From: an uncultured Azospirillum sp.
GTDB lineage: Bacteria; Pseudomonadota; Alphaproteobacteria; RF32; CAG-239
Assembly (NCBI GenBank): GCA_900542055.1
Contig: UQMA01000005.1
Span: 1-61,999 of the forward strand
Direction of reading: 5' to 3'
Length of the DNA stretch: 61,999 nt
The translations under genes and the position numbers were made by a program. Positions 9,401 to 54,698 of the stretch are shown here, in pieces (position 1 is the stretch's first letter; each line of letters starts with the position of its first letter). The notes under the pieces were generated by a model. It made no database searches, was not told where the DNA came from, and saw only the letters and a list, made by a program, of their open reading frames with translations.

Positions 9401-10003
9401 ATGATTTATGGTTATATAAGAATTAGCACAGATAAACAAAGTGCTGAAAATCAACGTTTTGAAATCAAACGATTTGCGTCGCAAAACAGCATTATTATAG
9501 ATTACTGGATAGCCGAAACCATCAGTTCCACAAAAAATTTACAAAAAAGAAAGCTGGGCGCCCTGTTGGTTAAATTACAAAAAGGAGACATTTTAGTTGC
9601 CAGCGAACTTTCACGTTTGGGACGCAACCTGTTGCAAGTAATGGGGATATTGGCTGAATGTATGAATCGCGAATGTCAGGTCTGGACTATCAAGGATAAT
9701 TATCGTTTGGGATCTGACATTCAGTCAAAAGTTTTAGCTTTTGCCTTTTCATTGTCTGCCGAAATCGAGCGCGCGCTTATATCCTCGCGCACCAAAGAAG
9801 CTTTGGCTCGAATCAAATCCGAAGGCAAAAAGCTCGGACGGCCGCATGGCAGTAAAAGCAAAGGTATATTAAACGATAAAGAAAATCAGATAAAAGAAAT
9901 GATTGGCAGCGGAAATTCTGTTGCAGAAATCGCCAAACACTGCAAATGCAATCGCTTGACGGTCTATCGTTTTCTTGAACAAAAAGATTCTTATCTAAAT
10001 TAA
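9401..10003 (+). CDS. small serine recombinase (resolvase/invertase family) with C-terminal HTH
   Basis: MIYGYIRISTDKQS catalytic-Ser motif, SRLGRN, and C-terminal SVAEIAKHCKCNRLTVYRFL helix-turn-helix. Confidence 0.85.
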   Translation: MIYGYIRISTDKQSAENQRFEIKRFASQNSIIIDYWIAETISSTKNLQKRKLGALLVKLQKGDILVASELSRLGRNLLQVMGILAECMNRECQVWTIKDNYRLGSDIQSKVLAFAFSLSAEIERALISSRTKEALARIKSEGKKLGRPHGSKSKGILNDKENQIKEMIGSGNSVAEIAKHCKCNRLTVYRFLEQKDSYLN

Positions 10004-13482: not shown

Positions 13483-14514
13483 ATGGCTGATCGTGAAGAT
13501 GTAAAACGGAAAATAAGTTTGATAAAAGGAGAAAGGGCTGTCAAAAAAGCCGCTGTTATTGCCGGTATCGGTTTATTCTCGCTTTTTCCTAAATTTGCTA
13601 ATGCGCAAACACAGTCAAAAACTGCCAATACATTTAAAACAGAACAAACTGTCGGCAAAAAAAACGCACAGCAAGCTGCAAATAACAAAAAGAGCAATAC
13701 TGCCGATAACGAAACCGGTTTGAAAGCTGCGGCGGCAGAATTGGCTGGAAACGCTGATTTTATGGCTAATTTTCTACTTGAAGAAGGCGAAAATATTGCC
13801 AAAAACTTTGATATGAAAGATTTTGATTTAACAGCTGAGATGACTAAAGGAATTGAAAACGGAAGCAGCTGCGAAGATTTAAACAGATTTGCCTTGAGCT
13901 CCAAGACAGGAAATCCCGACGGTCACCATTGTTATCGCGGAACGAAAGATATATTAAAGAATGTTGGTATAAATTTGTCGGGCGAAAATGCTTATGAAGC
14001 CGTTGGACAATTACGCGCTCTGCCTCAATTTACCGAAATCAAATGCGACTATGATATGCTGCCGTATGTTCCAAAAGGCTCTGTTGTTGTCCAAGGCAAA
14101 GGAAACACTAAGAGCGGGCATATTTTTGTTGTAAGTCAAGACACAAACGGAAACAAATTTCAACGTTGCGGCAGAACTTATCCTTTGCCGAAAAGCAACC
14201 TTCGCAATCGGCGCAGCGGACAAAGATATGGCGGGCTTTATGTTTTTATTCCATCAGACTGCAAATTGGATTTTGAAACGACATTAAATCTCTATAGAGA
14301 AGGAAATTTCAATATTTCGGCAGAAGATATGATATACCAAAGACTCAAAGATGATAAAGGCGATAAAGAAACTGAAGCAAATAAAAACGACAGCCATACA
14401 AAAAATCCAAATGATAAAAATGTGAAAAAACAAGAAAACCAGCATACTGCGACATTGGGAGCAAATGATTTTCTGCGCATAAAAAATAATATTGACCGAG
14501 GTTATAACGGCTGA
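13483..14514 (+). CDS. secreted protein with papain-like (NlpC/P60- or CHAP-like) Cys/His signature
   Basis: Charged N-region plus hydrophobic segment ending FANAQT. Candidate nucleophile GHHCYRGTKD (C150) and GNTKSGHIFVV (H213). Lys/Asn-rich tail. Confidence 0.5.
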   Translation: MADREDVKRKISLIKGERAVKKAAVIAGIGLFSLFPKFANAQTQSKTANTFKTEQTVGKKNAQQAANNKKSNTADNETGLKAAAAELAGNADFMANFLLEEGENIAKNFDMKDFDLTAEMTKGIENGSSCEDLNRFALSSKTGNPDGHHCYRGTKDILKNVGINLSGENAYEAVGQLRALPQFTEIKCDYDMLPYVPKGSVVVQGKGNTKSGHIFVVSQDTNGNKFQRCGRTYPLPKSNLRNRRSGQRYGGLYVFIPSDCKLDFETTLNLYREGNFNISAEDMIYQRLKDDKGDKETEANKNDSHTKNPNDKNVKKQENQHTATLGANDFLRIKNNIDRGYNG

Positions 14515-15897: not shown

Positions 15898-16018
15898 ATA
15901 TTTTCTCCCATAAAAACACACTCAATATTTATATAGTTATAAAAAATATATTTTGTATAATTTTTAGGTTGATTTTAGACAAAAAAATACACTATAATCT
16001 TATAAAGGATGGTGTAAT

Positions 16019-17422
16019 ATGAACACGGATTATTCAAAATATGACAATGCTCCGCAACGTTCCGGAATGGGACGCAGAGAAGACCGGCCTTCGACCGGAG
16101 CACGTATTCATGAAATCAAACAAAAAATTTCCGGCAATCAAAATAATGCCTCAGCTAAATTTTCAATTTCAAATACAAAACGCGATGATTTTCTGCAAAA
16201 GCAGCAAGAAATAAGCGAACAATTTGACAAATTGTGGAACGCTTACCGCGCCTCGTTCAGTTTGGAAGATGAAAAAAAATTACAGGATTTTGCTCAAAAA
16301 TACCAAATAAAACTCTCGCTTAAACATGAAGTTACTAAAGATGAACGCAGTGAAATTGCCCGCATGGCATTTAATGGTACTGTGGAGCGCCCTCAATGCA
16401 AAACCTACCAATCAAACAAAAACAATACCGGTAATTCTTTCAGCCCCAAACCTAGGGAATATTCAGAAGAATACAGCAAAATTGTAACCAATCCTTTAGA
16501 ATATGCCAAGAATCCGCGTGCAAAAGAGGATTACAATTTAGATGACAACGGCTTATGGCATGTGATGAAACAATTTCCAGAATTTGAAGGCATAAAAGAC
16601 CGTATCACTTCCGGTTTGGCGCAAGCTGGTGTTCCCCCTGAAATTTTGCCGCAAATGAATCTGAATGATTTTAAACATTTTCTAACCACTCATTGCAGCG
16701 TTGGACAATCATCTTCTTTTGCCAAAATATTTCCACAGACCGATGAAAAAGGAAATATTGTGCGCGATTTTAGAACACAAAAAGCCTTAACAACTAGTGC
16801 TAAACAACGCAACACCATACGCTTTATCAATGAACATCCTGAATTTGCTGATTTAATGATGCGTATCCCTGGAGCTCGAAAAGATTATGTCGATGAATTA
16901 GTCAGACAAATGAAAAAAGGCAACACCGACATGACCTGCTTTTTAAAAAATCATCCCGAATGGAAAGACCAAACAGCCATCAATGTTCACCACATCATAA
17001 ATGTAAAAGATTGCCGTACTCTTGAAGAAAAAGGATTGCCGCTCAGCTATATAAATGACTATGACAATATGTGCATTATGGGGTGCGGAACTCTCGGCGA
17101 GGTTATGCAAAAGAGCTGTTCAAAAAATCAAAAACATACAAAACTTCCGGGAATTCATGGTGAAATGCACAATCATGATACAACGTTCCGTGACTCAAAA
17201 CTTTACCGTGCAAAATGGGGAGAATATACCAAACCAAAAGAAAATGATGTAATTGCCCGCATGGAACCAGCCCCCGGAGTTTGCTGTATGTTAGCTTTCG
17301 GCGATGAATATTGCATTGTCGATGAAAACAGAAAACAACGCCAAACAGAACTGCAAAAAGCACAAAAGCAGCAAAGTTCTTTTGTTCCTCATCCCAACGC
17401 GCCGGCAAAAACAATGGAGTAA
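16019..17422 (+). CDS. putative toxin: novel N-terminal region plus C-terminal HNH/EndoVII-fold (AHH-like) nuclease signature
   Basis: 467 aa with no signal peptide. C-terminus has INVHHIINV (HH codons at 16988..16993), YINDYDNMCIM and LPGIHGEMHNHD, i.e. an HH..N..N..HxxxH pattern. Confidence 0.5.
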   Translation: MNTDYSKYDNAPQRSGMGRREDRPSTGARIHEIKQKISGNQNNASAKFSISNTKRDDFLQKQQEISEQFDKLWNAYRASFSLEDEKKLQDFAQKYQIKLSLKHEVTKDERSEIARMAFNGTVERPQCKTYQSNKNNTGNSFSPKPREYSEEYSKIVTNPLEYAKNPRAKEDYNLDDNGLWHVMKQFPEFEGIKDRITSGLAQAGVPPEILPQMNLNDFKHFLTTHCSVGQSSSFAKIFPQTDEKGNIVRDFRTQKALTTSAKQRNTIRFINEHPEFADLMMRIPGARKDYVDELVRQMKKGNTDMTCFLKNHPEWKDQTAINVHHIINVKDCRTLEEKGLPLSYINDYDNMCIMGCGTLGEVMQKSCSKNQKHTKLPGIHGEMHNHDTTFRDSKLYRAKWGEYTKPKENDVIARMEPAPGVCCMLAFGDEYCIVDENRKQRQTELQKAQKQQSSFVPHPNAPAKTME

Positions 17423-17427
17423 TGTGA

Positions 17428-17847
17428 ATGAACCTTGAACACCTAATCCAAATTTTAGATAAAAATGAAGAAGTCGGAAAAAATGACAGTGATATTAATG
17501 ATGTGCAAATATCCGTTGCCAATATCAAATTACGCAAAAACGGCATTGCGCAAATTCCTGATGACTTTGCTAAACTTTTAAAAAAATATAACGGGCTATC
17601 ATGCGGAGGCAATACCATCTTCGGTATTAACACCGGCACCTCATTTTTTCCAGATCTCGTTGATTTTAATCTTAATATGCTTGCTGATGAAGATGTTTCG
17701 TGTGTTATTCTCGGACAAGACGATGATTTTTATCTTATCTATGACGAGGAAAAATTATGCTACCGAATTATTGACCAATCCGACTTTTTTGAAGAACTAA
17801 GCACCGATGATTTAACAACTGCAATAACTTGGATTTTAAAAATCTAA
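17428..17847 (+). CDS. SUKH/SMI1-KNR4-like putative immunity protein
   Basis: 139 aa, acidic. IPDDFAKLLKKYNGLSCGGNTIFGI resembles the SMI1/KNR4 core. Starts 5 nt after the toxin stop, with its own GGAG. Confidence 0.55.
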   Translation: MNLEHLIQILDKNEEVGKNDSDINDVQISVANIKLRKNGIAQIPDDFAKLLKKYNGLSCGGNTIFGINTGTSFFPDLVDFNLNMLADEDVSCVILGQDDDFYLIYDEEKLCYRIIDQSDFFEELSTDDLTTAITWILKI

Positions 17848-18665
17848 TAGCGTTTGCGACCATTGCTGTATCCATCGGGATCATAGCCGTCGTCATCATA
17901 ATTTCCCTGATTGTTAAAGCCGCCCTGATTATATCCCGAACCATTGTTATAGGCGCCGTTGTTTTGGGAACCATAGTTATTTCCCTGATTATAACCATTG
18001 CCGTAGCCATACCCGTTCGGAGCATTATAACCGCCCTGATTATTGTAATTGTTATATCCGTTTTGATTATAGCCGTTAGGGTTATTGTAACCGCTCTGGC
18101 TGTTATAATCGTTTTGTCCGTTATATCCATACTGCTGTTGTTTATAATCGCGCTGGCGTCCCTCTTCCTCCTGCTGCAATTCATAAATTGCAGAAATAAC
18201 TGTATCCCGAAACTCACGCGGACGGTTTACATCTTCAATGCAAATACGGCTTTCATCATTACCGACCTGAATAACCACTGTTCCGGCTCCAAAAATTCTC
18301 TGTGCCAAACTTTGCATAATCTGCACGTCGTTTATTTTGGCTAAAGGAATATCTTTTTCATGAATATTGATAATTCCGCGGCGGATATAAACCCTTTGAT
18401 TTGTGACAGCATAAATCTTCAGCCTGTTGTCTATACGTTTGTAAACATACGGAATAAACAAAATAAGCCCCAACAGCATAAATAAGGAAGAAACTTTTAC
18501 AATTTTTCCCATCCAATGAACATTAAGGTCACCGAACACCCCCGACCAAACGGCAAAAAATATCAAAATTCCGATAGACATTAACAACATCGGAAAAACA
18601 AAGACTTTATAGCTAAAATGAACTTCGATTTTAACATATTCATTTGGTCTGAGTTCTAGTGACAT
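17844..18665 (-). CDS. bacterial PH-domain (bPH_2/DUF304) membrane protein with N/G/Y/Q-rich low-complexity tail
   Basis: Two TM helices. YAVTNQRVYIRRGIINIHEKDIPLAKINDVQIMQSLAQRIFGAGTVVI (bPH_2-like). The last ~100 aa are almost only N, G, Y, Q, S and D. Confidence 0.75.
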   Translation of the reverse strand: MSLELRPNEYVKIEVHFSYKVFVFPMLLMSIGILIFFAVWSGVFGDLNVHWMGKIVKVSSLFMLLGLILFIPYVYKRIDNRLKIYAVTNQRVYIRRGIINIHEKDIPLAKINDVQIMQSLAQRIFGAGTVVIQVGNDESRICIEDVNRPREFRDTVISAIYELQQEEEGRQRDYKQQQYGYNGQNDYNSQSGYNNPNGYNQNGYNNYNNQGGYNAPNGYGYGNGYNQGNNYGSQNNGAYNNGSGYNQGGFNNQGNYDDDGYDPDGYSNGRKRY

Positions 18666-46287: not shown

Positions 46288-47097
46288 TCATCCTCTGCTC
46301 ATTTGTTTTTTGAGCAATTCAAGTTGCATAAAATAATCTTCTTTTCCAGCTTTCAGCATTCTGTCTTTCAACTTATCACACCGTTCAATATGTTCTTCCA
46401 TCGGCTTTAATTGTAAGTTTTCTATAAATTTATCAAAATCATCACCGGTTTTGAAAGACGGTTTATCTTTGCCGAATTCATATATTTCAATCGGAAATCC
46501 CAATTCAACCGCCTTTTGCACAAAATCGTCGACCGCACAAGACACATTGCCCGAAACATTAGGCATAACATGCAAAGGATTTCCCTTTGGATAGGGTGCT
46601 CCTTCGTGGCGAAAACGTTTGAACCGAGTAAAAGCATCATCATAATCAGCTTTGCGTTCCGCTACATTCATAGCGGCCTGATATTCGTCAACCAACATAA
46701 CTTTTATATCTGTTTTATACCCTTTATTTTCCATCCACTCAATCATACTCATTGTCTGCTTAATTGCAGAAGTGTCATAGGTAATATTATATTGTTTTTT
46801 GATTGCTTCCGTAATAATTTTTTTATTAACGTTTGAAGCAAATTTGGCTATATCTTTATCGAGAAAATCTTTTTCCCGAACGTCAATATCAAGTTCTTTG
46901 GCATATTCGGCAATAACGTTGTCCGCCGAAATAATCACGCTGTTTTTAATTTTAGCTGCCAGAGTCGACTTTCCCGATCCCGGAGCTCCTACCAATGCCG
47001 TAAAAACTGGCTTTTTGACTGGAGTTTTACCTTCAAAAGCCATTTTTTTCATTTTTTCGAAAAAATAAATTTGTTCATCTTCAGCCAATTCAAGCAT
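46288..47097 (-). CDS. zeta-toxin-like / P-loop kinase family protein
   Basis: Walker A GAPGSGKSTLA followed by IISADNV. Size and layout resemble zeta/AAA_33 kinases. TGATG overlap with rarA. Confidence 0.55.
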   Translation of the reverse strand: MLELAEDEQIYFFEKMKKMAFEGKTPVKKPVFTALVGAPGSGKSTLAAKIKNSVIISADNVIAEYAKELDIDVREKDFLDKDIAKFASNVNKKIITEAIKKQYNITYDTSAIKQTMSMIEWMENKGYKTDIKVMLVDEYQAAMNVAERKADYDDAFTRFKRFRHEGAPYPKGNPLHVMPNVSGNVSCAVDDFVQKAVELGFPIEIYEFGKDKPSFKTGDDFDKFIENLQLKPMEEHIERCDKLKDRMLKAGKEDYFMQLELLKKQMSRG

Positions 47098-48423: not shown

Positions 48424-49698
48424 CTACCGGCCGCCTCTGTCATATCCTATATTTGTTTGTTGTTTTTGATGATGGCGCGATGCCAATTCCTGTTTTTTTC
48501 GTTCTTCAATAACCTGCCGCAACTCTTCTTTGTTGGCTCTATTCTGCTGGCGGATATATTCCAAACTATCCTTATCTTCAACCGGAGCTTTTTCTTTTCC
48601 AGCAACAGCTTTATGTATTTGCTGCCCTATTTTAACCAGCTTGTCAACATTCATTCCGTCAAATCCGGCAACATTGATAACGCCGAATTGTTTGCCTCCG
48701 TTCAGAAAAATCTCAGTTAAATCAATATTCATCCCCCCTCGTGCTTTTTTGTTTTTAGGAGCTAAAATACGTTTTAATTCGGCTGCTGACGGAGGGTATC
48801 CCAAAGCTTGTGCAATTTGCTCCGGCGTAATAATGCATTCGCTTAAATCAAGTTCCAAAATATTAACACCGGTAAAGTCGACACCGCTGAAATCAACACC
48901 CCGCAAACTGACTCTGGTTAAATCAATTTTCTTCAAATCGAGCATCGTCAGATTTAAACGCGTTAAATCAAGTTTTTCAGGATAATATTTTGCAACAAAT
49001 TCTATCAGTTGCTGAAGTTCTTCAAGACTGATATCATCTATTTCCAAATCCAACAAAATTGCATTTTGAAAAAAAGCATCGGTAAAAACGGCATTTTTCA
49101 AAATAGCGCCTGTAAAATTGGTGCCGATAAGTTGCGCGCCGGCAAAAGTAGCTCCCGACAAATCAGCTCCCGAAAGATCCGTATTGGTTAAATTTGCACC
49201 AGAAAAATCAGCCCCCCGCAAATTGGAGCCGGAAAAATTAACGCCTGACAAGTTAGCCGCAGAAAAATTGGCATCTTGTAAATTTTCGTGATCAAACTCT
49301 CCGTTTTCGAGGTTTTTACCATTAAATTCGATATTAAGCAGAGGTAAATCATCTTCATCTTCTTCAGGCAAAGACACAGCGTGCCACCCGCTATCATCGC
49401 CATCACCAGCCGGCGCAGTTTTTTTCGGATTATCCGCATCATCGTCAGAAACATCATCGTCTGTTTCTTCGTTGACATCTTCATCTTCCGCTAAAAATCC
49501 GCCGTTAATAAAGTCATCTTCATCATAAAACGAGCTTTGAGGCAAATCTTCTTCAAAATCTTCGTGAGGCGGAAAATCGTCATCTTCTTCAAGATATTGG
49601 TCTTGAGGAATTAAAGGAGCTTCTGCCGCCGCCATTTCAGCACGGGTTTTATCTCTGATTGCTTTCAGAGCGGCGATTTTCTTTTCTTTAGCAGCCAT
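48424..49698 (-). CDS. pentapeptide-repeat protein with highly acidic N-terminal region
   Basis: About 110-aa D/E-rich N-terminus. Then tandem A(D/N)LSG-type pentapeptides (NFSAANLSGVNFSGSNLRGADFSGANLTNTDLSGADLSGATFAGAQL...) and a second block. Confidence 0.8.
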   Translation of the reverse strand: MAAKEKKIAALKAIRDKTRAEMAAAEAPLIPQDQYLEEDDDFPPHEDFEEDLPQSSFYDEDDFINGGFLAEDEDVNEETDDDVSDDDADNPKKTAPAGDGDDSGWHAVSLPEEDEDDLPLLNIEFNGKNLENGEFDHENLQDANFSAANLSGVNFSGSNLRGADFSGANLTNTDLSGADLSGATFAGAQLIGTNFTGAILKNAVFTDAFFQNAILLDLEIDDISLEELQQLIEFVAKYYPEKLDLTRLNLTMLDLKKIDLTRVSLRGVDFSGVDFTGVNILELDLSECIITPEQIAQALGYPPSAAELKRILAPKNKKARGGMNIDLTEIFLNGGKQFGVINVAGFDGMNVDKLVKIGQQIHKAVAGKEKAPVEDKDSLEYIRQQNRANKEELRQVIEERKKQELASRHHQKQQTNIGYDRGGR

Positions 49699-51755: not shown

Positions 51756-51790
51756 CAAAAAAGGCTCTCTTTCGAGAGCCTTTTGCTTTT
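51755..51790. terminator. bidirectional terminator
   Basis: AAGGCTCTC-tttc-GAGAGCCTT flanked by A6 and TTTTGCTTTT. Confidence 0.85.
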
Positions 51791-54698
51791 ACCATGTATA
51801 GCTTATTCCTATCCCAGCAGAGAAAGAATCATAACTTGAGCCGTAAGTATAATTGCCCCAAGAATAGCCGTATATACTATCGTTAAAATGATAATTTCCA
51901 CCAACTTCAATGCGAGATAAAGTCTGATCGTGATATGTGGTCAGTTCATTCATTCTTGAAATTTTAACATTATCATCGGCAGTTATGGTCTGTATTATGC
52001 TAGGTTTAACATAAACACGTCCATCAATATAATCTTTTTCTATTTTAACTCCCAATTCTGCTTCAAAATATTTTATATTATCCCAGTTATAATTTTTTCC
52101 CATATTATCAGAAGCAGAATCGAAGTTTAATTGAGTATAGTAAAAACCAATACTTGGGGACATTGTTAATTTCTTTCCGATATCATAAGTTTTACCATAT
52201 TCAGTCATTAAGCCAAATTCAACTCCGTCCGTATCAAAAGACATTCCATCATCAGTGCCAATTTCAGCCTTTTGTCCCCCTCCATATACACTGGCAAACA
52301 ACCAATGCATATTTTTATCATAGCGATAATATAATCCGCCTAGATAGCTATCAATTTTAATATCGCTGCCGATTGACGAATGAAGTTTAGTTCCTTTTCC
52401 CGATAAGTCATAACTGCCGTCACGATAAGAAACAAAGACACCTAATGTATTATTGATGTCATTTTGAAGGTCAAAACCACCTTCGACTCCCCAAATTTTG
52501 GCATCCATACTCACAGGTTTGTCAATATTAGCATTTTCTCCTTGTGTTAATACCCATGCATTGCGAAGTTTTTCTCCATTCCACGCATCTGATGCGATTT
52601 TGGTTTCCGAAACCTTATTATTAACATTTCGGAAAACGTTGCGAGTTTGTTCAACAGCTGCCTCATGCAAACCTACTCCCGCAATAATTTCCGGATTATA
52701 TACTATTGCTTTGGAAGCAGCTGGTTTTCCAGGCTCCGGAAACGTAAATTCATCGTCAATAGATAATATCGGAGGAACAAAATCTACATAGTCTTTTTCA
52801 TTATTTTCTTCTGTTCCGACCAAATACCAATAACTTCCTTGTGTTTCTCCATTTATATTATAGGCTACAGTCCATTTATACGGACTTCCGTATACTCTAA
52901 ACACACTAGGGGTTGTTCCGTTAACATCATTTGGAGCTTCTATAAATAAAACGCTTGCTCCTCTGTTATCTTCTCTGGTTTTATCATAAACTACAACCTG
53001 TGTCGTTCCCTCTATTTGACCACTGATTGACAAAATATCTGCAACCCATTTATCATTATTTTTCAACACATCGACGTGAAGGAATGTGTCTCCGGATGCT
53101 GTATAATTTTTCATTTTAATTTTATCAGCATAGTCATTATATAAGTAGAACCAAGAATCATTCAGCGTTAAGCTTGTTACTGCGTCAGCATCAAAATCAG
53201 GCGCTTTATAATTATTTTTTGCTGTTGCAACAAAGTTTCCTCTACAATTATCACCACAACCATAATCATCAGTATATGGAGCTTTGTTAAAAGACAAAAC
53301 AGCTCCGTCAACAGCGACTTCTCTAGCGTTAGAAATATAATTATTCATAAAGAATTTGCCGCTTCCATAACCTTTTATAGCAATATCATAAACCGCATTT
53401 TCTCCGGTTGCAATTCTTCCCATTATACTATCATTAAAGTATAAATTTCCTTTTCCTGTAATATCAAAAGTCAGCTTAACAGGTGTATTGCTCTCATTGT
53501 CAACAAATATCGCATTATACGCTTTGCCATATTCATTTTTTGCATAGTTACCGGTAAAATAATTATCTAAACCATTAGCAACAAACGTCATATCACCGCC
53601 AATGTACAGTGCGCCTCCATAAGCGTGTGTTGATGAGCTTTCCGCATAATTATTTATAAAGCTTCCTGTAATAGTATTTATACCGTTAGCTGAATGTATT
53701 GCTCCGCCTAATGCTTGCGGCGCTGAAACATAATTCCCAATAAAATTGCCATATATATCCGGCATAACACCTGTTTCCGCATTCATAATAGCACCGCCGT
53801 AAGCATAACTGCCTGCTTTAGCATAATTTCCGATAAAATCAGCCTGAATTAAAGGAATAATAATACCGCCTTCTACATTTTCATTACCTATTCTGGCAGC
53901 AGCGTTAAAAATTGCTCCTCCTCTAGCGTGTACTCCGCCTTCCACATAATTTCCAATAAAGGTTCCTTTTATTTTTTCAATAGTGCCGGTAAGATTAACA
54001 ATAGCCCCTCCCCCGGAAATTCCATTTGAAAAAACATGATTTCCTATAAAATTAGCATTTATTTCCTTAAAGCTACTTATTAAATTAGCCAGCGCTCCGC
54101 CAGCGGCCCGTGCATCACTGCTCGGTTTTTGGTGATTTACAGAATTGCCTATAAAATCACCTACCAACAAATTTACGCTTCCAGGCATGTTATAAGAGGC
54201 TCCGTTTTGCATGGCTCCGCCATATCCCACCGGATCGGATGTTCCAAGTTGCAGTTCATTACCAATAAAATCAGCTGTTAATTTTTCTATTTTTCCTCTG
54301 TTTACAAATGCACCAGGACTTAACCAATTTGTTCCTTGGGATTTATAAAAATACCCAGTGTATTCATCTATATTACTTGAATTGTCTTGTCTGGTATTAT
54401 GAACTTGTCCTAACTTATCTTCTCCAAGAAAATCAAGAGATATTTTTTTATACACCGGAGAGGTTGTCAAATCATCGTTAATTTTATAAAAAACAAAATC
54501 ATTATCATTCACAGAAGCAGGAGCATCAAATGTTATGCTGTACCCGCTATTTATCGAAGATTGATTTTTTTCATAGGCTTTATCAAGTGAGGGAACATAT
54601 TTATTAAAATCATACAAAACGGTTTCGCCTGAAATGGCTGCACTTGAATATAAAAATGGGCTAAGAGCTAATAATTTTGCGTAATTTTTAGTTTTCAT
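51789..54698 (-). CDS. autotransporter with Pmp-type (GGA[ILV] / FxxN) passenger repeats
   Basis: Signal peptide. Many alternating GGAI/GGAL and F(I/T)GN motifs (ADFIGNYAKA...YGGAIMNAE...). C-terminal beta-barrel ending SAGIGISYTW. Confidence 0.85.
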   Translation of the reverse strand: MKTKNYAKLLALSPFLYSSAAISGETVLYDFNKYVPSLDKAYEKNQSSINSGYSITFDAPASVNDNDFVFYKINDDLTTSPVYKKISLDFLGEDKLGQVHNTRQDNSSNIDEYTGYFYKSQGTNWLSPGAFVNRGKIEKLTADFIGNELQLGTSDPVGYGGAMQNGASYNMPGSVNLLVGDFIGNSVNHQKPSSDARAAGGALANLISSFKEINANFIGNHVFSNGISGGGAIVNLTGTIEKIKGTFIGNYVEGGVHARGGAIFNAAARIGNENVEGGIIIPLIQADFIGNYAKAGSYAYGGAIMNAETGVMPDIYGNFIGNYVSAPQALGGAIHSANGINTITGSFINNYAESSSTHAYGGALYIGGDMTFVANGLDNYFTGNYAKNEYGKAYNAIFVDNESNTPVKLTFDITGKGNLYFNDSIMGRIATGENAVYDIAIKGYGSGKFFMNNYISNAREVAVDGAVLSFNKAPYTDDYGCGDNCRGNFVATAKNNYKAPDFDADAVTSLTLNDSWFYLYNDYADKIKMKNYTASGDTFLHVDVLKNNDKWVADILSISGQIEGTTQVVVYDKTREDNRGASVLFIEAPNDVNGTTPSVFRVYGSPYKWTVAYNINGETQGSYWYLVGTEENNEKDYVDFVPPILSIDDEFTFPEPGKPAASKAIVYNPEIIAGVGLHEAAVEQTRNVFRNVNNKVSETKIASDAWNGEKLRNAWVLTQGENANIDKPVSMDAKIWGVEGGFDLQNDINNTLGVFVSYRDGSYDLSGKGTKLHSSIGSDIKIDSYLGGLYYRYDKNMHWLFASVYGGGQKAEIGTDDGMSFDTDGVEFGLMTEYGKTYDIGKKLTMSPSIGFYYTQLNFDSASDNMGKNYNWDNIKYFEAELGVKIEKDYIDGRVYVKPSIIQTITADDNVKISRMNELTTYHDQTLSRIEVGGNYHFNDSIYGYSWGNYTYGSSYDSFSAGIGISYTW

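What the first reader, a model, noticed from the sequence alone, without database searches (positions are those of the whole stretch)
16019..17847. Orphan toxin/immunity-like pair: HNH/AHH-like C-terminus plus SUKH-like protein, with no recognisable delivery domain
Seen in sequence: a 467-aa ORF has no signal peptide, and I cannot assign its first ~310 aa to any family. Its last ~80 aa carry INVHHIINV ... YINDYDNMCIM ... LPGIHGEMHNHD, i.e. an HH..N..N..HxxxH pattern. Five nt downstream, with its own GGAG, lies a 139-aa acidic ORF containing IPDDFAKLLKKYNGLSCGGNTIFGI. Established knowledge: AHH and other HNH/EndoVII-fold nucleases are common C-terminal toxin modules of polymorphic toxin systems. 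SMI1/KNR4 (SUKH-1) proteins are the commonest cognate immunity proteins and are encoded immediately downstream. Inference: this is a toxin-immunity cassette. However, no Rhs/YD, CdiA/TPS, PAAR, LXG, MAFB or T6SS/T7SS marker lies in the protein or in the 62-kb window. The N-terminal region may therefore be a new trafficking or adaptor module, or the pair may act intracellularly (abortive-infection or addiction type).
Basis: partly seen in the sequence, partly recalled or inferred. Interest (0 to 1): 0.7.

Follow-up and report, generated by a model that had tools for sequence, protein, structure and literature searches.

The report
Lineage-fixed HNH nuclease with SUKH inhibitor
A two-gene operon in an uncultured gut alphaproteobacterium encodes a likely DNA-cutting enzyme with a new front half and, just downstream, a small acidic protein with the fold of known nuclease-blocking immunity proteins; unlike ordinary bacterial toxin cassettes, the pair is inherited vertically and does not swap its toxic end.

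Summary
Both ORFs are real: 16019-17422 (467 aa, "T") and 17428-17847 (139 aa, "I"). I has a SUKH fold: its AF2 model (pLDDT 94) matches 2ICG, 3D5P, 2PAG and Syd. Curated sequence models fall just below their cut-offs. T carries HH..N..N..H...H, invariant or nearly so across about 140 relatives. Relatives give weak hits to AHH, HNH_2, HNH_3, LHH and colicin-DNase models, and the profile aligns in register with the HNH motif of E. coli YhhZ (hhalign 88%). Foldseek found no match for the confident whole-protein model, and T is not an AHH-family member. The first ~300 aa match nothing known. T and I are adjacent in 36 of 36 informative GTDB loci, usually with overlapping codons. The pair is not a polymorphic toxin. 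The N-terminal part is always joined to the same HNH domain. The locus is syntenic down to 38% identity and under purifying selection (dN/dS 0.03 for T, 0.17 for I). It is absent from the phage, plasmid and viral collections searched, and no secretion genes lie beside it. Best reading: an HNH nuclease held inactive by a cognate SUKH inhibitor, fixed in gut Alphaproteobacteria. Whether it is exported or acts inside the cell is unresolved.

The parts
15969..15998 (+). sigma-70-like promoter candidate (TTGATT-18 nt-TATAAT) in the 97-nt intergenic region upstream of T; AAGGA Shine-Dalgarno at 16005-16009
   Evidence: Consensus scan, 10 of 12 matches; sequence read. This is a consensus match only, and the region as a whole is not enriched over shuffles.
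16019..17422 (+). T: 467-aa cytoplasmic protein made of a family-specific N-terminal part and an HNH-type nuclease domain
   Evidence: ORF. 25 full-length homologues and 158 representatives by profile search. AF2 pLDDT 83.7, pTM 0.79. dN/dS 0.031.
16019..16168 (+). T residues 1-50: predicted disordered, basic N-terminus carrying a motif conserved among close homologues (M..D..K..N.P.R.GMGRG)
   Evidence: pLDDT below 60 for residues 1-50; consensus of alignment A1; pI 10.
16169..16960 (+). T residues 51-314: mainly alpha-helical region with invariant E85, A114, F118, G120, Y172, W180, E188, D217, K262, F269, F276, Y290; no match to any known family or fold
   Evidence: Alignment A1. Confident AF2 model. 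No Pfam, NCBIfam, PADLOC or PHROG hit. No Foldseek hit in PDB or BFVD. No PDB profile hit.
16961..17188 (+). T residues 315-390: HNH (His-Me finger) core. Strand 319-325 ends in H324-H325. N346 and N350 precede strand 351-358. A ~25-aa inserted helix follows, then helix 378-385 with H380 and H384.
   Evidence: In 37 diverse relatives HH and H...H are invariant and both Asn nearly so. Secondary structure from the AF2 model. Weak hits of relatives to AHH, HNH_2, HNH_3, LHH and Col-Pyo_DNase. hhalign to YhhZ gives probability 87.8% with the motif in register. McrA HNH aligns in register but weakly. A PHROG HNH family hits P0128.
17189..17323 (+). T residues 391-435: conserved beta-rich extension after the HNH core (invariant R414, P417, G420, M424)
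17324..17419 (+). T residues 436-467: helix followed by a disordered Q/K-rich basic tail that varies among homologues
   Evidence: pLDDT below 50 for residues 454-467; alignment A1; pI 10.
17416..17419 (+). GGAG ribosome-binding site for I, inside the last sense codons of T and 8 nt before the ATG of I
   Evidence: Sequence read. In relatives the junction is an overlap in 31 of 37 loci, 16 of them the 4-nt type.
17428..17847 (+). I: 139-aa acidic (pI 4.1) SUKH-fold protein, the predicted cognate inhibitor or immunity protein of T
   Evidence: AF2 pLDDT 94.4. Foldseek: 2icg E 1.5e-4, TM 0.71; 3d5p (SMI1/KNR4) E 5e-4; 2pag; 3ffv. Sub-threshold SUKH_5/6 and YrhA-family HMM hits. A homologue is named 'YrhA family protein' by NCBI.

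Best explanation
T and I form a nuclease-inhibitor pair of the toxin-immunity type, transcribed as one operon. T is made in the cytoplasm. Its C-terminal third is an HNH (beta-beta-alpha-metal) nuclease. By analogy with xHH/HNH toxins, H324 and H380/H384 would hold the metal, H325 would activate water, and N346/N350 would brace the hairpin. I is an acidic SUKH-fold protein, translated from an adjacent or overlapping start, that would bind T one-to-one and block the active site in the producer. Both halves resemble the enterobacterial YhhZ (Hcp-HNH) / YrhA module, but here the Hcp carrier is replaced by a ~300-aa mostly helical region of unknown fold that always accompanies this HNH domain. The pair is not a shuffling polymorphic-toxin cassette. 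It is fixed in the chromosome of a clade of gut and rumen Alphaproteobacteria and descends vertically under purifying selection. Shown: the gene pair, its linkage, the SUKH fold, the conserved HNH motif, and the evolutionary mode. Inferred: DNase activity, inhibition by I, and any toxicity. On where T acts, I lean slightly towards a cell-intrinsic, latent nuclease (about 0.4) over an exported weapon (about 0.3 to 0.35). The data do not decide this.
For: SUKH fold of I: Foldseek top hits are 2icg, 3d5p, 2pag and 3ffv. These are four of the five structures (with 2PRV/YobK) on which the SUKH superfamily was based (PMC3113570). 9 of 26 partners hit SUKH_6 and 5 of 26 hit SMI1_KNR4. The YrhA-family HMM scores E 1e-11. 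HNH in T: HH and H...H are invariant and both Asn nearly so across 37 diverse relatives. Weak hits converge on AHH (5/37), HNH_2 (4/37), HNH_3, LHH and Col-Pyo_DNase, pyocin AP41 DNase (E 0.73) and a PHROG HNH family. hhalign to YhhZ gives probability 87.8%, P 3e-6. The strand-strand-helix order in the AF2 model fits. Linkage: I lies directly downstream in 36 of 36 informative GTDB loci and in several unrelated neighbourhoods. 31 of 37 junctions overlap. T and I identities fall together. I is acidic throughout the family, pI 4.1 to 5.2. Function is maintained: dN/dS 0.031 for T and 0.168 for I. Vertical and fixed: synteny is conserved down to 38% identity of T, and T and I diverge in step with their neighbours. 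Loci recovered through the neighbouring bPH gene also carry I, and T where the contig reaches that far.
Against: The window protein reaches no curated HNH model, even at E<=1. Foldseek with the confident full-length model finds no nuclease, though the ~40-residue His-Me finger is small for that method and I could not inspect the active-site geometry. The partner's sequence hits are all below curated cut-offs. Some distant relatives keep an intact HH..N..H...H motif but have no SUKH gene beside them (L048, L050, L054), so the nuclease may not always need this inhibitor. No binding, nuclease or toxicity data exist.
Confidence: 0.65

Rival explanations
1. Exported antibacterial DNase. T leaves the producer by a route not yet recognised: as a cargo effector of a secretion system encoded elsewhere, by lysis or vesicle release like a colicin, or using its conserved disordered N-terminus or basic C-terminal tail as a signal. 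It kills neighbours that lack I. The N-terminal ~300 aa would be a new trafficking or receptor-binding module.
For: Both halves resemble a T6SS-type Hcp-toxin / immunity module, YhhZ/YrhA. Hcp-ET HNH-DNases are reviewed in PMC6099711. SUKH proteins next to HNH nucleases are classically immunity proteins for secreted toxins (PMC3113570). A large N-terminal extension and a conserved N-terminal peptide motif are present. The operon has the layout of a nuclease bacteriocin, with the immunity gene directly downstream.
Against: T has no signal peptide or TM segment and no PAAR, Rhs, LXG, TPS, MIX or Hcp domain. Among 36 window ORFs scanned, the only secretion-related gene is an autotransporter 34 kb away. 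All neighbourhoods of relatives are housekeeping genes. There is no C-terminal polymorphism. No orphan immunity arrays were seen in 37 loci. The pair is vertical and syntenic with dN/dS 0.03. AF2 predicts one compact unit (pTM 0.79) rather than beads on a string.
Confidence: 0.3
2. Phage-defence or addiction module. T is a latent nuclease released when I is degraded or titrated, for instance on infection or stress, as in abortive infection or a type II toxin-antitoxin system.
For: The two-gene inhibitor logic fits. T is cytoplasmic and there is no export machinery nearby. I evolves faster than T and than its neighbours (dN/dS 0.168).
Against: There are no PADLOC hits for T, I or distant relatives, apart from one marginal hit (E 0.008, 14 bits) of P0128 to the candidate family PDC-M13C. 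The locus is not in a defence island and is flanked by housekeeping and envelope genes. Known defence and TA systems are patchy and mobile, whereas this pair is syntenic across species and absent from the plasmid, phage and IMG/VR collections.
Confidence: 0.15
3. T is not a toxin but a DNA-processing enzyme of normal physiology (repair, recombination, DNA uptake or nucleoid turnover). Its N-terminal region recognises substrate, and I acts as a regulator or adaptor rather than a life-saving antidote.
For: Invariant residues are spread over the whole protein and AF2 predicts an integrated fold. Inheritance is order-level, vertical and at fixed sites, e.g. pepA|T|I|tsaC in a second clade. Purifying selection is strong. 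Some relatives lack I yet keep the catalytic motif. Lys-rich tails of the DNA-binding type occur in distant relatives. SUKH domains can be non-immunity adaptors, such as Syd and Smi1 (PMC3113570).
Against: In the window clade I is never missing and is translationally coupled, as expected for an antidote. The closest recognisable relatives of both halves belong to a toxin/immunity context. The family is confined to one group of uncultured bacteria, which is unlike a general housekeeping enzyme.
Confidence: 0.15
4. A classical polymorphic-toxin cassette: a conserved delivery N-terminus with swappable C-terminal toxins, horizontally mobile.
For: There is an HNH-type C-terminal region with a SUKH gene directly downstream.
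Against: 143 of 171 relatives carry the same C-terminal domain. Of the other 28, most are short fragments, and several longer ones (P0071, P0093, P0152) score just below the 1e-3 cut against the same domain. Only P0163 (646 aa) has a long tail with no match. Synteny and co-divergence with neighbours hold. No trafficking domain was found. There are no phage, plasmid or viral copies.
Confidence: 0.03

Closest known systems
E. coli YhhZ / YrhA (Hcp-fused HNH endonuclease of the Hcp-ET type, with the YrhA-family protein encoded downstream)
   Same: The C-terminal HNH motif aligns in register: NVHHK..DGG..NDFENLVL..PYH against the HH..D..N.F.NLCL..PYH..LH of T relatives (hhalign probability 87.8%). 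The partner I matches the NCBIfam YrhA-family model (E 1e-11), and one partner homologue is named YrhA family by NCBI. The gene order is the same, with a 4-nt overlap in E. coli.
   Different: YhhZ has an N-terminal T6SS Hcp domain, which T lacks. The window T has a ~25-aa insert between the Asn strand and the His helix. I scores below the YrhA family cut-off (44.8 against 55 bits), and hhalign to the truncated K-12 YrhA fragment is weak (probability 18%). That YhhZ itself is the characterised Hcp-ET1 is my inference, not something tested here.
xHH families of HNH/EndoVII toxins with SUKH immunity proteins (AHH, LHH, WHH; Zhang, Iyer & Aravind 2011, PMC3113570)
   Same: An HH dyad sits on the first strand and two further His on the helix, which is the pattern described for these families. 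A SUKH gene lies immediately downstream. Weak Pfam AHH and LHH hits occur in relatives.
   Different: The residue before HH is not conserved (V, I, L, M, A, G, F, P, R or K). No member reaches a curated threshold. Those families are C-terminal modules of polymorphic, horizontally shuffled toxins with recognisable trafficking domains, whereas this one has a fixed architecture and vertical descent.
Colicin / pyocin DNase with Im protein
   Same: The active-site signature is a four-histidine H-N-H. The nuclease is made in the cytoplasm without a signal peptide, with a disordered N-terminus, and the acidic inhibitor gene lies directly downstream. There are marginal profile hits to pyocin AP41 DNase (E 0.73) and Col-Pyo_DNase (E 0.09).
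   Different: The inhibitor has a different fold (SUKH, not the four-helix Im fold). There is no lysis gene, receptor or translocation domain, and no plasmid or pyocin locus. The sequence similarity is not significant.
Secreted nuclease with intracellular inhibitor, e.g. barnase-barstar or Anabaena NucA-NuiA (from my own knowledge)
   Same: These are chromosomal, monomorphic, vertically inherited enzyme-inhibitor pairs in which the inhibitor only protects the producer.
   Different: Those nucleases carry signal peptides and belong to other families. No homology was detected.

Membership tests
HNH / EndoVII (His-Me finger) superfamily | HH (or xH) dyad at the end of the first beta strand | tested here: met
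   H324-H325 are invariant in 18 close and 37 diverse relatives. They lie at the end of strand 319-325 in the AF2 model.
HNH / EndoVII (His-Me finger) superfamily | Conserved Asn on or near the second strand, and metal-binding His residues on the following helix (H-x3-H) | tested here: met
   N346 and N350 are nearly invariant. H380 and H384 are invariant and lie on helix 378-385.
HNH / EndoVII (His-Me finger) superfamily | Beta-beta-alpha-metal fold recognisable by structure comparison | tested here: inconclusive
   The order of secondary-structure elements fits. Foldseek with the full-length model gave no hit with E<0.8 in PDB or BFVD. Coordinates could not be inspected.
HNH / EndoVII (His-Me finger) superfamily | Significant match to a curated HNH-type sequence model | tested here: inconclusive
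   The window protein has no hit at E<=1. Relatives hit AHH 5/37 (best 6e-4), HNH_2 4/37 (6e-4), and HNH_3, LHH, Col-Pyo_DNase and HNH once each, none shown to reach a gathering score. hhalign to YhhZ gives 87.8%. McrA aligns in register with P 0.005.
HNH / EndoVII (His-Me finger) superfamily | Metal-dependent nuclease activity | not testable with these tools
   Needs purified protein.
Pfam AHH (PF14412) | Nearly absolutely conserved Ala-His-His tripeptide and a match to the family model | tested here: not met
   The tripeptide is V-H-H in the window protein and the first residue varies across relatives. The window protein has no AHH hit.
SUKH superfamily (SMI1/KNR4, SUKH_1-6, YrhA) | SUKH alpha+beta fold | tested here: met
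   AF2 pLDDT 94.4, pTM 0.89. Foldseek: 2icg E 1.5e-4 (TM 0.71), 3d5p_A SMI1/KNR4 E 5.3e-4, 2pag TM 0.68/0.71, 3ffv Syd. These are four of the five reference SUKH structures used in PMC3113570.
SUKH superfamily (SMI1/KNR4, SUKH_1-6, YrhA) | Score above the curated cut-off of a family model | tested here: not met
   SUKH_6 21.5 bits against 27, SUKH_5 20.7 against 27, and YrhA family 44.8 against 55. 9 of 26 and 5 of 26 partners give sub-threshold SUKH_6 and SMI1_KNR4 hits. One homologue (P0208) is named YrhA family by NCBI.
SUKH superfamily (SMI1/KNR4, SUKH_1-6, YrhA) | Encoded immediately downstream of a nuclease toxin gene (immunity context) | tested here: met
   Found in 36 of 36 informative GTDB loci, with 31 of 37 junctions overlapping.
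Polymorphic toxin systems (Zhang et al. 2012, PMC3482391) | Recognisable N-terminal trafficking or secretion domain | tested here: not met
   No Pfam or NCBIfam domain in the first 310 aa of T or of 17 homologues. No signal peptide or TM segment.
Polymorphic toxin systems (Zhang et al. 2012, PMC3482391) | Variable C-terminal toxin domains on a conserved N-terminal scaffold | tested here: not met
   143 of 171 relatives have the same HNH-type C-domain. Most of the other 28 are short fragments, and several longer ones score just below the cut against the same domain.
Polymorphic toxin systems (Zhang et al. 2012, PMC3482391) | Sporadic, polymorphic distribution between related genomes; orphan cassettes or immunity arrays | tested here: not met
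   Synteny is conserved down to 38% identity of T, with co-divergence with neighbours. There is a single I per locus. Loci found through the neighbouring gene all carry I, and T where the contig extends (only 4 informative loci).
Known anti-phage defence systems (PADLOC) / type II toxin-antitoxin | Match to a catalogued defence protein; location in a mobile or defence island | tested here: not met
   No PADLOC hit for T, I or their neighbours; one distant relative (P0128) has a marginal hit (E 0.008) to candidate family PDC-M13C. The context is housekeeping genes. No phage, plasmid or IMG/VR copies.
Hcp-ET (Hcp fused to an extended toxin) effectors | N-terminal Hcp domain | tested here: not met
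   YhhZ has T6SS_HCP. T has none.

The most novel reading that the evidence does not exclude
A toxin-immunity pair that has been domesticated. An HNH nuclease was fused to a previously unseen ~300-aa fold, together with its SUKH inhibitor, and has been kept at fixed chromosomal sites across an order-level clade of gut Alphaproteobacteria. There it would serve a cell-intrinsic function, such as regulated self-DNA cleavage, a latent suicide or defence switch, or DNA processing, rather than interbacterial warfare. The N-terminal region would then be a new substrate-recognition or regulatory domain, not a trafficking module.
Probability: 0.3. Interest if true: 0.65.

Novelty: new variant of a known kind. 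Interest (0 to 1): 0.45.

Why it matters
HNH-plus-SUKH pairs are a textbook form of bacterial conflict system, so the pair itself is not new. Three things are new. The nuclease family has no model in Pfam, NCBIfam, PADLOC or PHROGs. Its N-terminal two-thirds have no detectable relative in sequence or structure libraries. And its evolutionary behaviour (fixed architecture, conserved synteny, strong purifying selection, no mobile-element copies) is the opposite of what defines polymorphic toxins. If the pair is exported, the N-terminal region marks an unrecognised delivery route in abundant but uncultured gut and rumen Alphaproteobacteria. If it acts inside the cell, it is a case of a conflict module turned into a stable lineage gene. 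Either way it supplies seed alignments for a new protein family of about 160 representative sequences.

Tried and rejected
- Foldseek of the full-length T model against PDB and BFVD gave nothing below E 0.8. The weak RelA/SpoT and ACE rows are noise (TM below 0.1).
- Sequence and profile searches of T against PDB chains gave only chance hits. Pyocin AP41 DNase, at E 0.73, is suggestive but not significant.
- PADLOC and PHROGs gave nothing for T or I. One distant relative has a weak PHROG HNH hit.
- tblastn of T and I against the INPHARED phage and PLSDB plasmid collections, and a pattern scan of IMG/VR, found no relatives.
- Tox-REHH, a newly described divergent HNH toxin family that is sometimes paired with SUKH (bioRxiv 10.64898/2026.09.22.753552), was considered. 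T has a canonical HH..N..H...H motif and no stated link to STox_30, and no sequence was available to test, so I make no claim.
- I looked for internal repeats in the 1032-aa relative P0113 and for copies of the T 255-312 segment. Nothing was significant, so I make no repeat claim.
- The idea that the conserved upstream block (343-aa secreted protein, DUF1189, DUF308) and the downstream bPH gene belong to the system was rejected. More distant T-I pairs sit in entirely different neighbourhoods.
- A literature search for YhhZ/YrhA found no functional study.
Full report
**Observation**

The window has a 467-aa ORF at 16019-17422 (+), called T here, and a 139-aa ORF at 17428-17847 (+), called I. 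They are separated by 5 nt.

T has no hydrophobic segment (maximum 19-residue Kyte-Doolittle mean 0.96). I is strongly acidic, with pI 4.1. A sigma-70-like site (TTGATT-18-TATAAT, 15969-15998) and an AAGGA precede T.

One detail needs correcting. The His/Asn motif lies at residues 324-384. It is followed by about 50 conserved residues and a disordered tail, so it is not in the 'last 80 aa'.

**The partner**

Sequence models place I just below threshold:
- SUKH_6: 21.5 bits against a cut-off of 27.
- SUKH_5: 20.7 bits against 27.
- NCBIfam YrhA family: E 1.1e-11, 44.8 bits against 55.

Among 26 diverse partners, 9 hit SUKH_6 and 5 hit SMI1_KNR4, all sub-threshold. NCBI names one homologue 'YrhA family protein'.

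The structural test is clear. An AF2 model built on 32 homologues has pLDDT 94.4 and pTM 0.89. Its best PDB matches are 2icg (E 1.5e-4, TM 0.71), 3d5p (SMI1/KNR4 family, E 5.3e-4), 2pag and 3ffv/Syd. These are four of the five structures (with 2PRV/YobK) on which Zhang, Iyer and Aravind based the SUKH superfamily (PMC3113570). The partner is a SUKH-fold protein.

**The large protein**

T has no hit in Pfam, NCBIfam, PADLOC or PHROGs. It has only 25 homologues in the 5.8-billion-protein collection, all full-length and none carrying a functional name.

An exhaustive profile search found 158 representatives with E<=1e-3. In 18 close homologues the following are invariant: H324, H325, K330, D331, N346, N350, C352, H380 and H384. 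In 37 diverse relatives, HH and H...H stay invariant and the two Asn nearly so.

Distant relatives have the compact, canonical arrangement HHK.AVKD..(8-10)..VN.F.NLCL....PYH..LH. The window protein carries an extra ~25 residues between the Asn strand and the His helix.

The AF2 model (pLDDT 83.7, pTM 0.79) places HH at the end of strand 319-325, N350 just before strand 351-358, and H380/H384 on helix 378-385. That is a beta-beta-alpha order with one inserted helix.

Independent weak signals converge on HNH/EndoVII:
- Pfam hits among relatives: AHH in 5 of 37 (best E 6e-4), HNH_2 in 4 of 37, and HNH_3, LHH, Col-Pyo_DNase and HNH in one each.
- Pyocin AP41 DNase is the fourth of four PDB profile hits, at E 0.73.
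- A PHROG HNH family hits P0128.
- hhalign of the C-terminal profile against E. coli YhhZ gives probability 87.8% and P 3e-6, with the motifs in register.
- The bona fide HNH of McrA also aligns in register, but weakly.

The pattern of an HH dyad plus two helix histidines is the one described for the xHH toxin families. However, the residue before HH is Val here and varies in relatives, and the window protein does not hit the AHH model. I therefore file T in the HNH superfamily, not in AHH.

Foldseek with the whole model found nothing. This leaves the fold claim resting on motif, profile and secondary structure. It also shows that the N-terminal ~300 residues, which are confidently modelled, resemble no solved or viral predicted structure. 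Profile searches of the whole protein against PDB, and Pfam scans of 18 homologues, also found nothing for that region.

**Linkage**

I lies directly downstream of T in every GTDB locus where the contig allows a test, 36 of 36. The junction is an overlap in 31 of 37 loci, the 4-nt type in 16, and otherwise a gap of 17 nt or less.

The pair recurs in unrelated neighbourhoods:
- DUF1189 - DUF308 - T - I - bPH, as in the window.
- SufE - T - I.
- GreA - T - I - GT2.
- pepA - T - I - tsaC.

The flanking genes are therefore not part of the system. Identities of T and I fall together across species: 66/68, 45/63, 41/44, 38/38 and 31/32%.

**Evolutionary mode**

1. The proposed survey for variable C-termini is negative. 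143 of 171 relatives have the same HNH-type C-domain. Of the other 28, most are short fragments, and several longer ones score just below the 1e-3 cut against the same domain.
2. All 37 genome hits are gut or rumen Alphaproteobacteria MAGs, labelled 'uncultured Azospirillum', Rhodospirillales and similar. The one exception is labelled Bacteroidaceae and is probably mis-binned.
3. The block around T-I is syntenic down to 38% identity of T, and T and I diverge in step with their neighbours.
4. In a second clade, a T-like gene of 399 to 1032 aa always sits between pepA and tsaC.
5. Against a 98%-identical locus, dN/dS is 0.031 for T and 0.168 for I, compared with 0.014 to 0.10 for neighbours.
6. 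No relative exists in the phage, plasmid or IMG/VR collections.
7. Loci recovered through the neighbouring bPH gene all carry I, and T where the contig reaches that far. Only four of these loci are informative.
8. The 62-kb window is ordinary chromosome, with SurA-type chaperone, GltX, RecN-like, BamD, LpxC, MraW, PBP, MreB, MiaA, Ddl, IleRS and Mla genes. Its only secretion-related gene is an autotransporter 34 kb away.

Zhang et al. stress that SUKH loci differ between close relatives that otherwise share genome organisation. This pair does the opposite.

**Mechanism**

The best-supported reading is a nuclease-inhibitor pair. T is a cytoplasmically made HNH nuclease. I is an acidic, translationally coupled SUKH protein that binds T and blocks it in the producer.

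Both halves have their nearest recognisable relatives in the YhhZ (Hcp + HNH) / YrhA module of Enterobacteriaceae. HNH-DNase Hcp fusions with downstream immunity proteins are established T6SS effectors (PMC6099711). Here the Hcp carrier is replaced by a new domain.

Nuclease activity, binding and toxicity are all inferred. As a caution, three distant relatives (the loci of P0052, P0128 and P0070) keep the catalytic motif but have no SUKH gene next to them.

**Where it acts**

An exported weapon is favoured by ancestry and by the large N-terminal extension with its conserved disordered N-terminal motif.

A cell-intrinsic role is favoured by:
- the lack of any export signal or machinery;
- the compact single-unit model;
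- invariant residues spread across the whole protein;
- vertical fixation and the absence of polymorphism.

I put about 0.3 to 0.35 on export. I put about 0.4 on an intracellular role, of which defence or addiction is about 0.15. The remainder goes to other or no function.

**Novelty and score**

The kind of system, an HNH nuclease with a SUKH immunity protein, is well known. The family, its N-terminal fold and its stable, non-polymorphic inheritance are new variants on that theme. Interest is moderate (0.45). It would rise if a new export route or a domesticated intracellular function were demonstrated.

Noticed in passing
window 13483-14514 (+): A 343-aa protein with a signal-like N-terminal hydrophobic segment and a Cys...His pattern (HHCYRG ... 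SGHIFVV) that resembles a papain-like/NlpC-CHAP amidase. It has no Pfam, NCBIfam, PADLOC or PDB sequence hit. It is the fastest-evolving gene of the conserved block upstream of T (28-52% identity).
   Followed up: partly
window 17844-18665 (-): A bacterial PH-domain (bPH_2) membrane protein with a ~110-aa N/G/Y/Q-rich low-complexity C-terminal tail. It converges on the SUKH gene, and the two stop codons overlap by 4 nt. It is a conserved neighbour in the window's clade only.
   Followed up: partly
window 9401-10003 (+): A serine resolvase (PF00239) lies 6 kb upstream of T. No other mobile-element gene was seen nearby, and a homologue is present in the syntenic locus L014.
   Followed up: no
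window 46288-47097 (-): A Zeta_toxin-like P-loop kinase (PF06414, E 6e-11) lies between a pseudouridine synthase and MgsA. No obvious epsilon-type antitoxin was looked for.
   Followed up: no
window 51789-54698 (-) and 48424-49698 (-): A 969-aa autotransporter, which is the only secretion-related gene found among the 36 scanned ORFs, and a 424-aa pentapeptide-repeat protein.
   Followed up: no
L046, L050, L054, L055, L056 (second alphaproteobacterial clade): T-like genes occupy a fixed site, pepA(-) | T | (I) | tsaC/Sua5(+), but range from 399 to 1032 aa. The SUKH partner is present in L046, L055 and L056. It is absent in L054, and L050 has two tandem T paralogues instead. Several of these proteins carry long Lys-rich tails resembling histone H1.
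   Followed up: partly
L031 2954-4234: The T homologue is split into two ORFs (273 + 120 aa) while the partner is intact. This is either a decaying nuclease gene with retained immunity or a MAG assembly error.
   Followed up: no
L009 (CAVIWQ010000037.1): The locus 98% identical to the window is deposited as 'Bacteroidaceae bacterium'. The other 36 loci are from Alphaproteobacteria or unclassified proteobacteria, so this contig is probably mis-binned.
   Followed up: no
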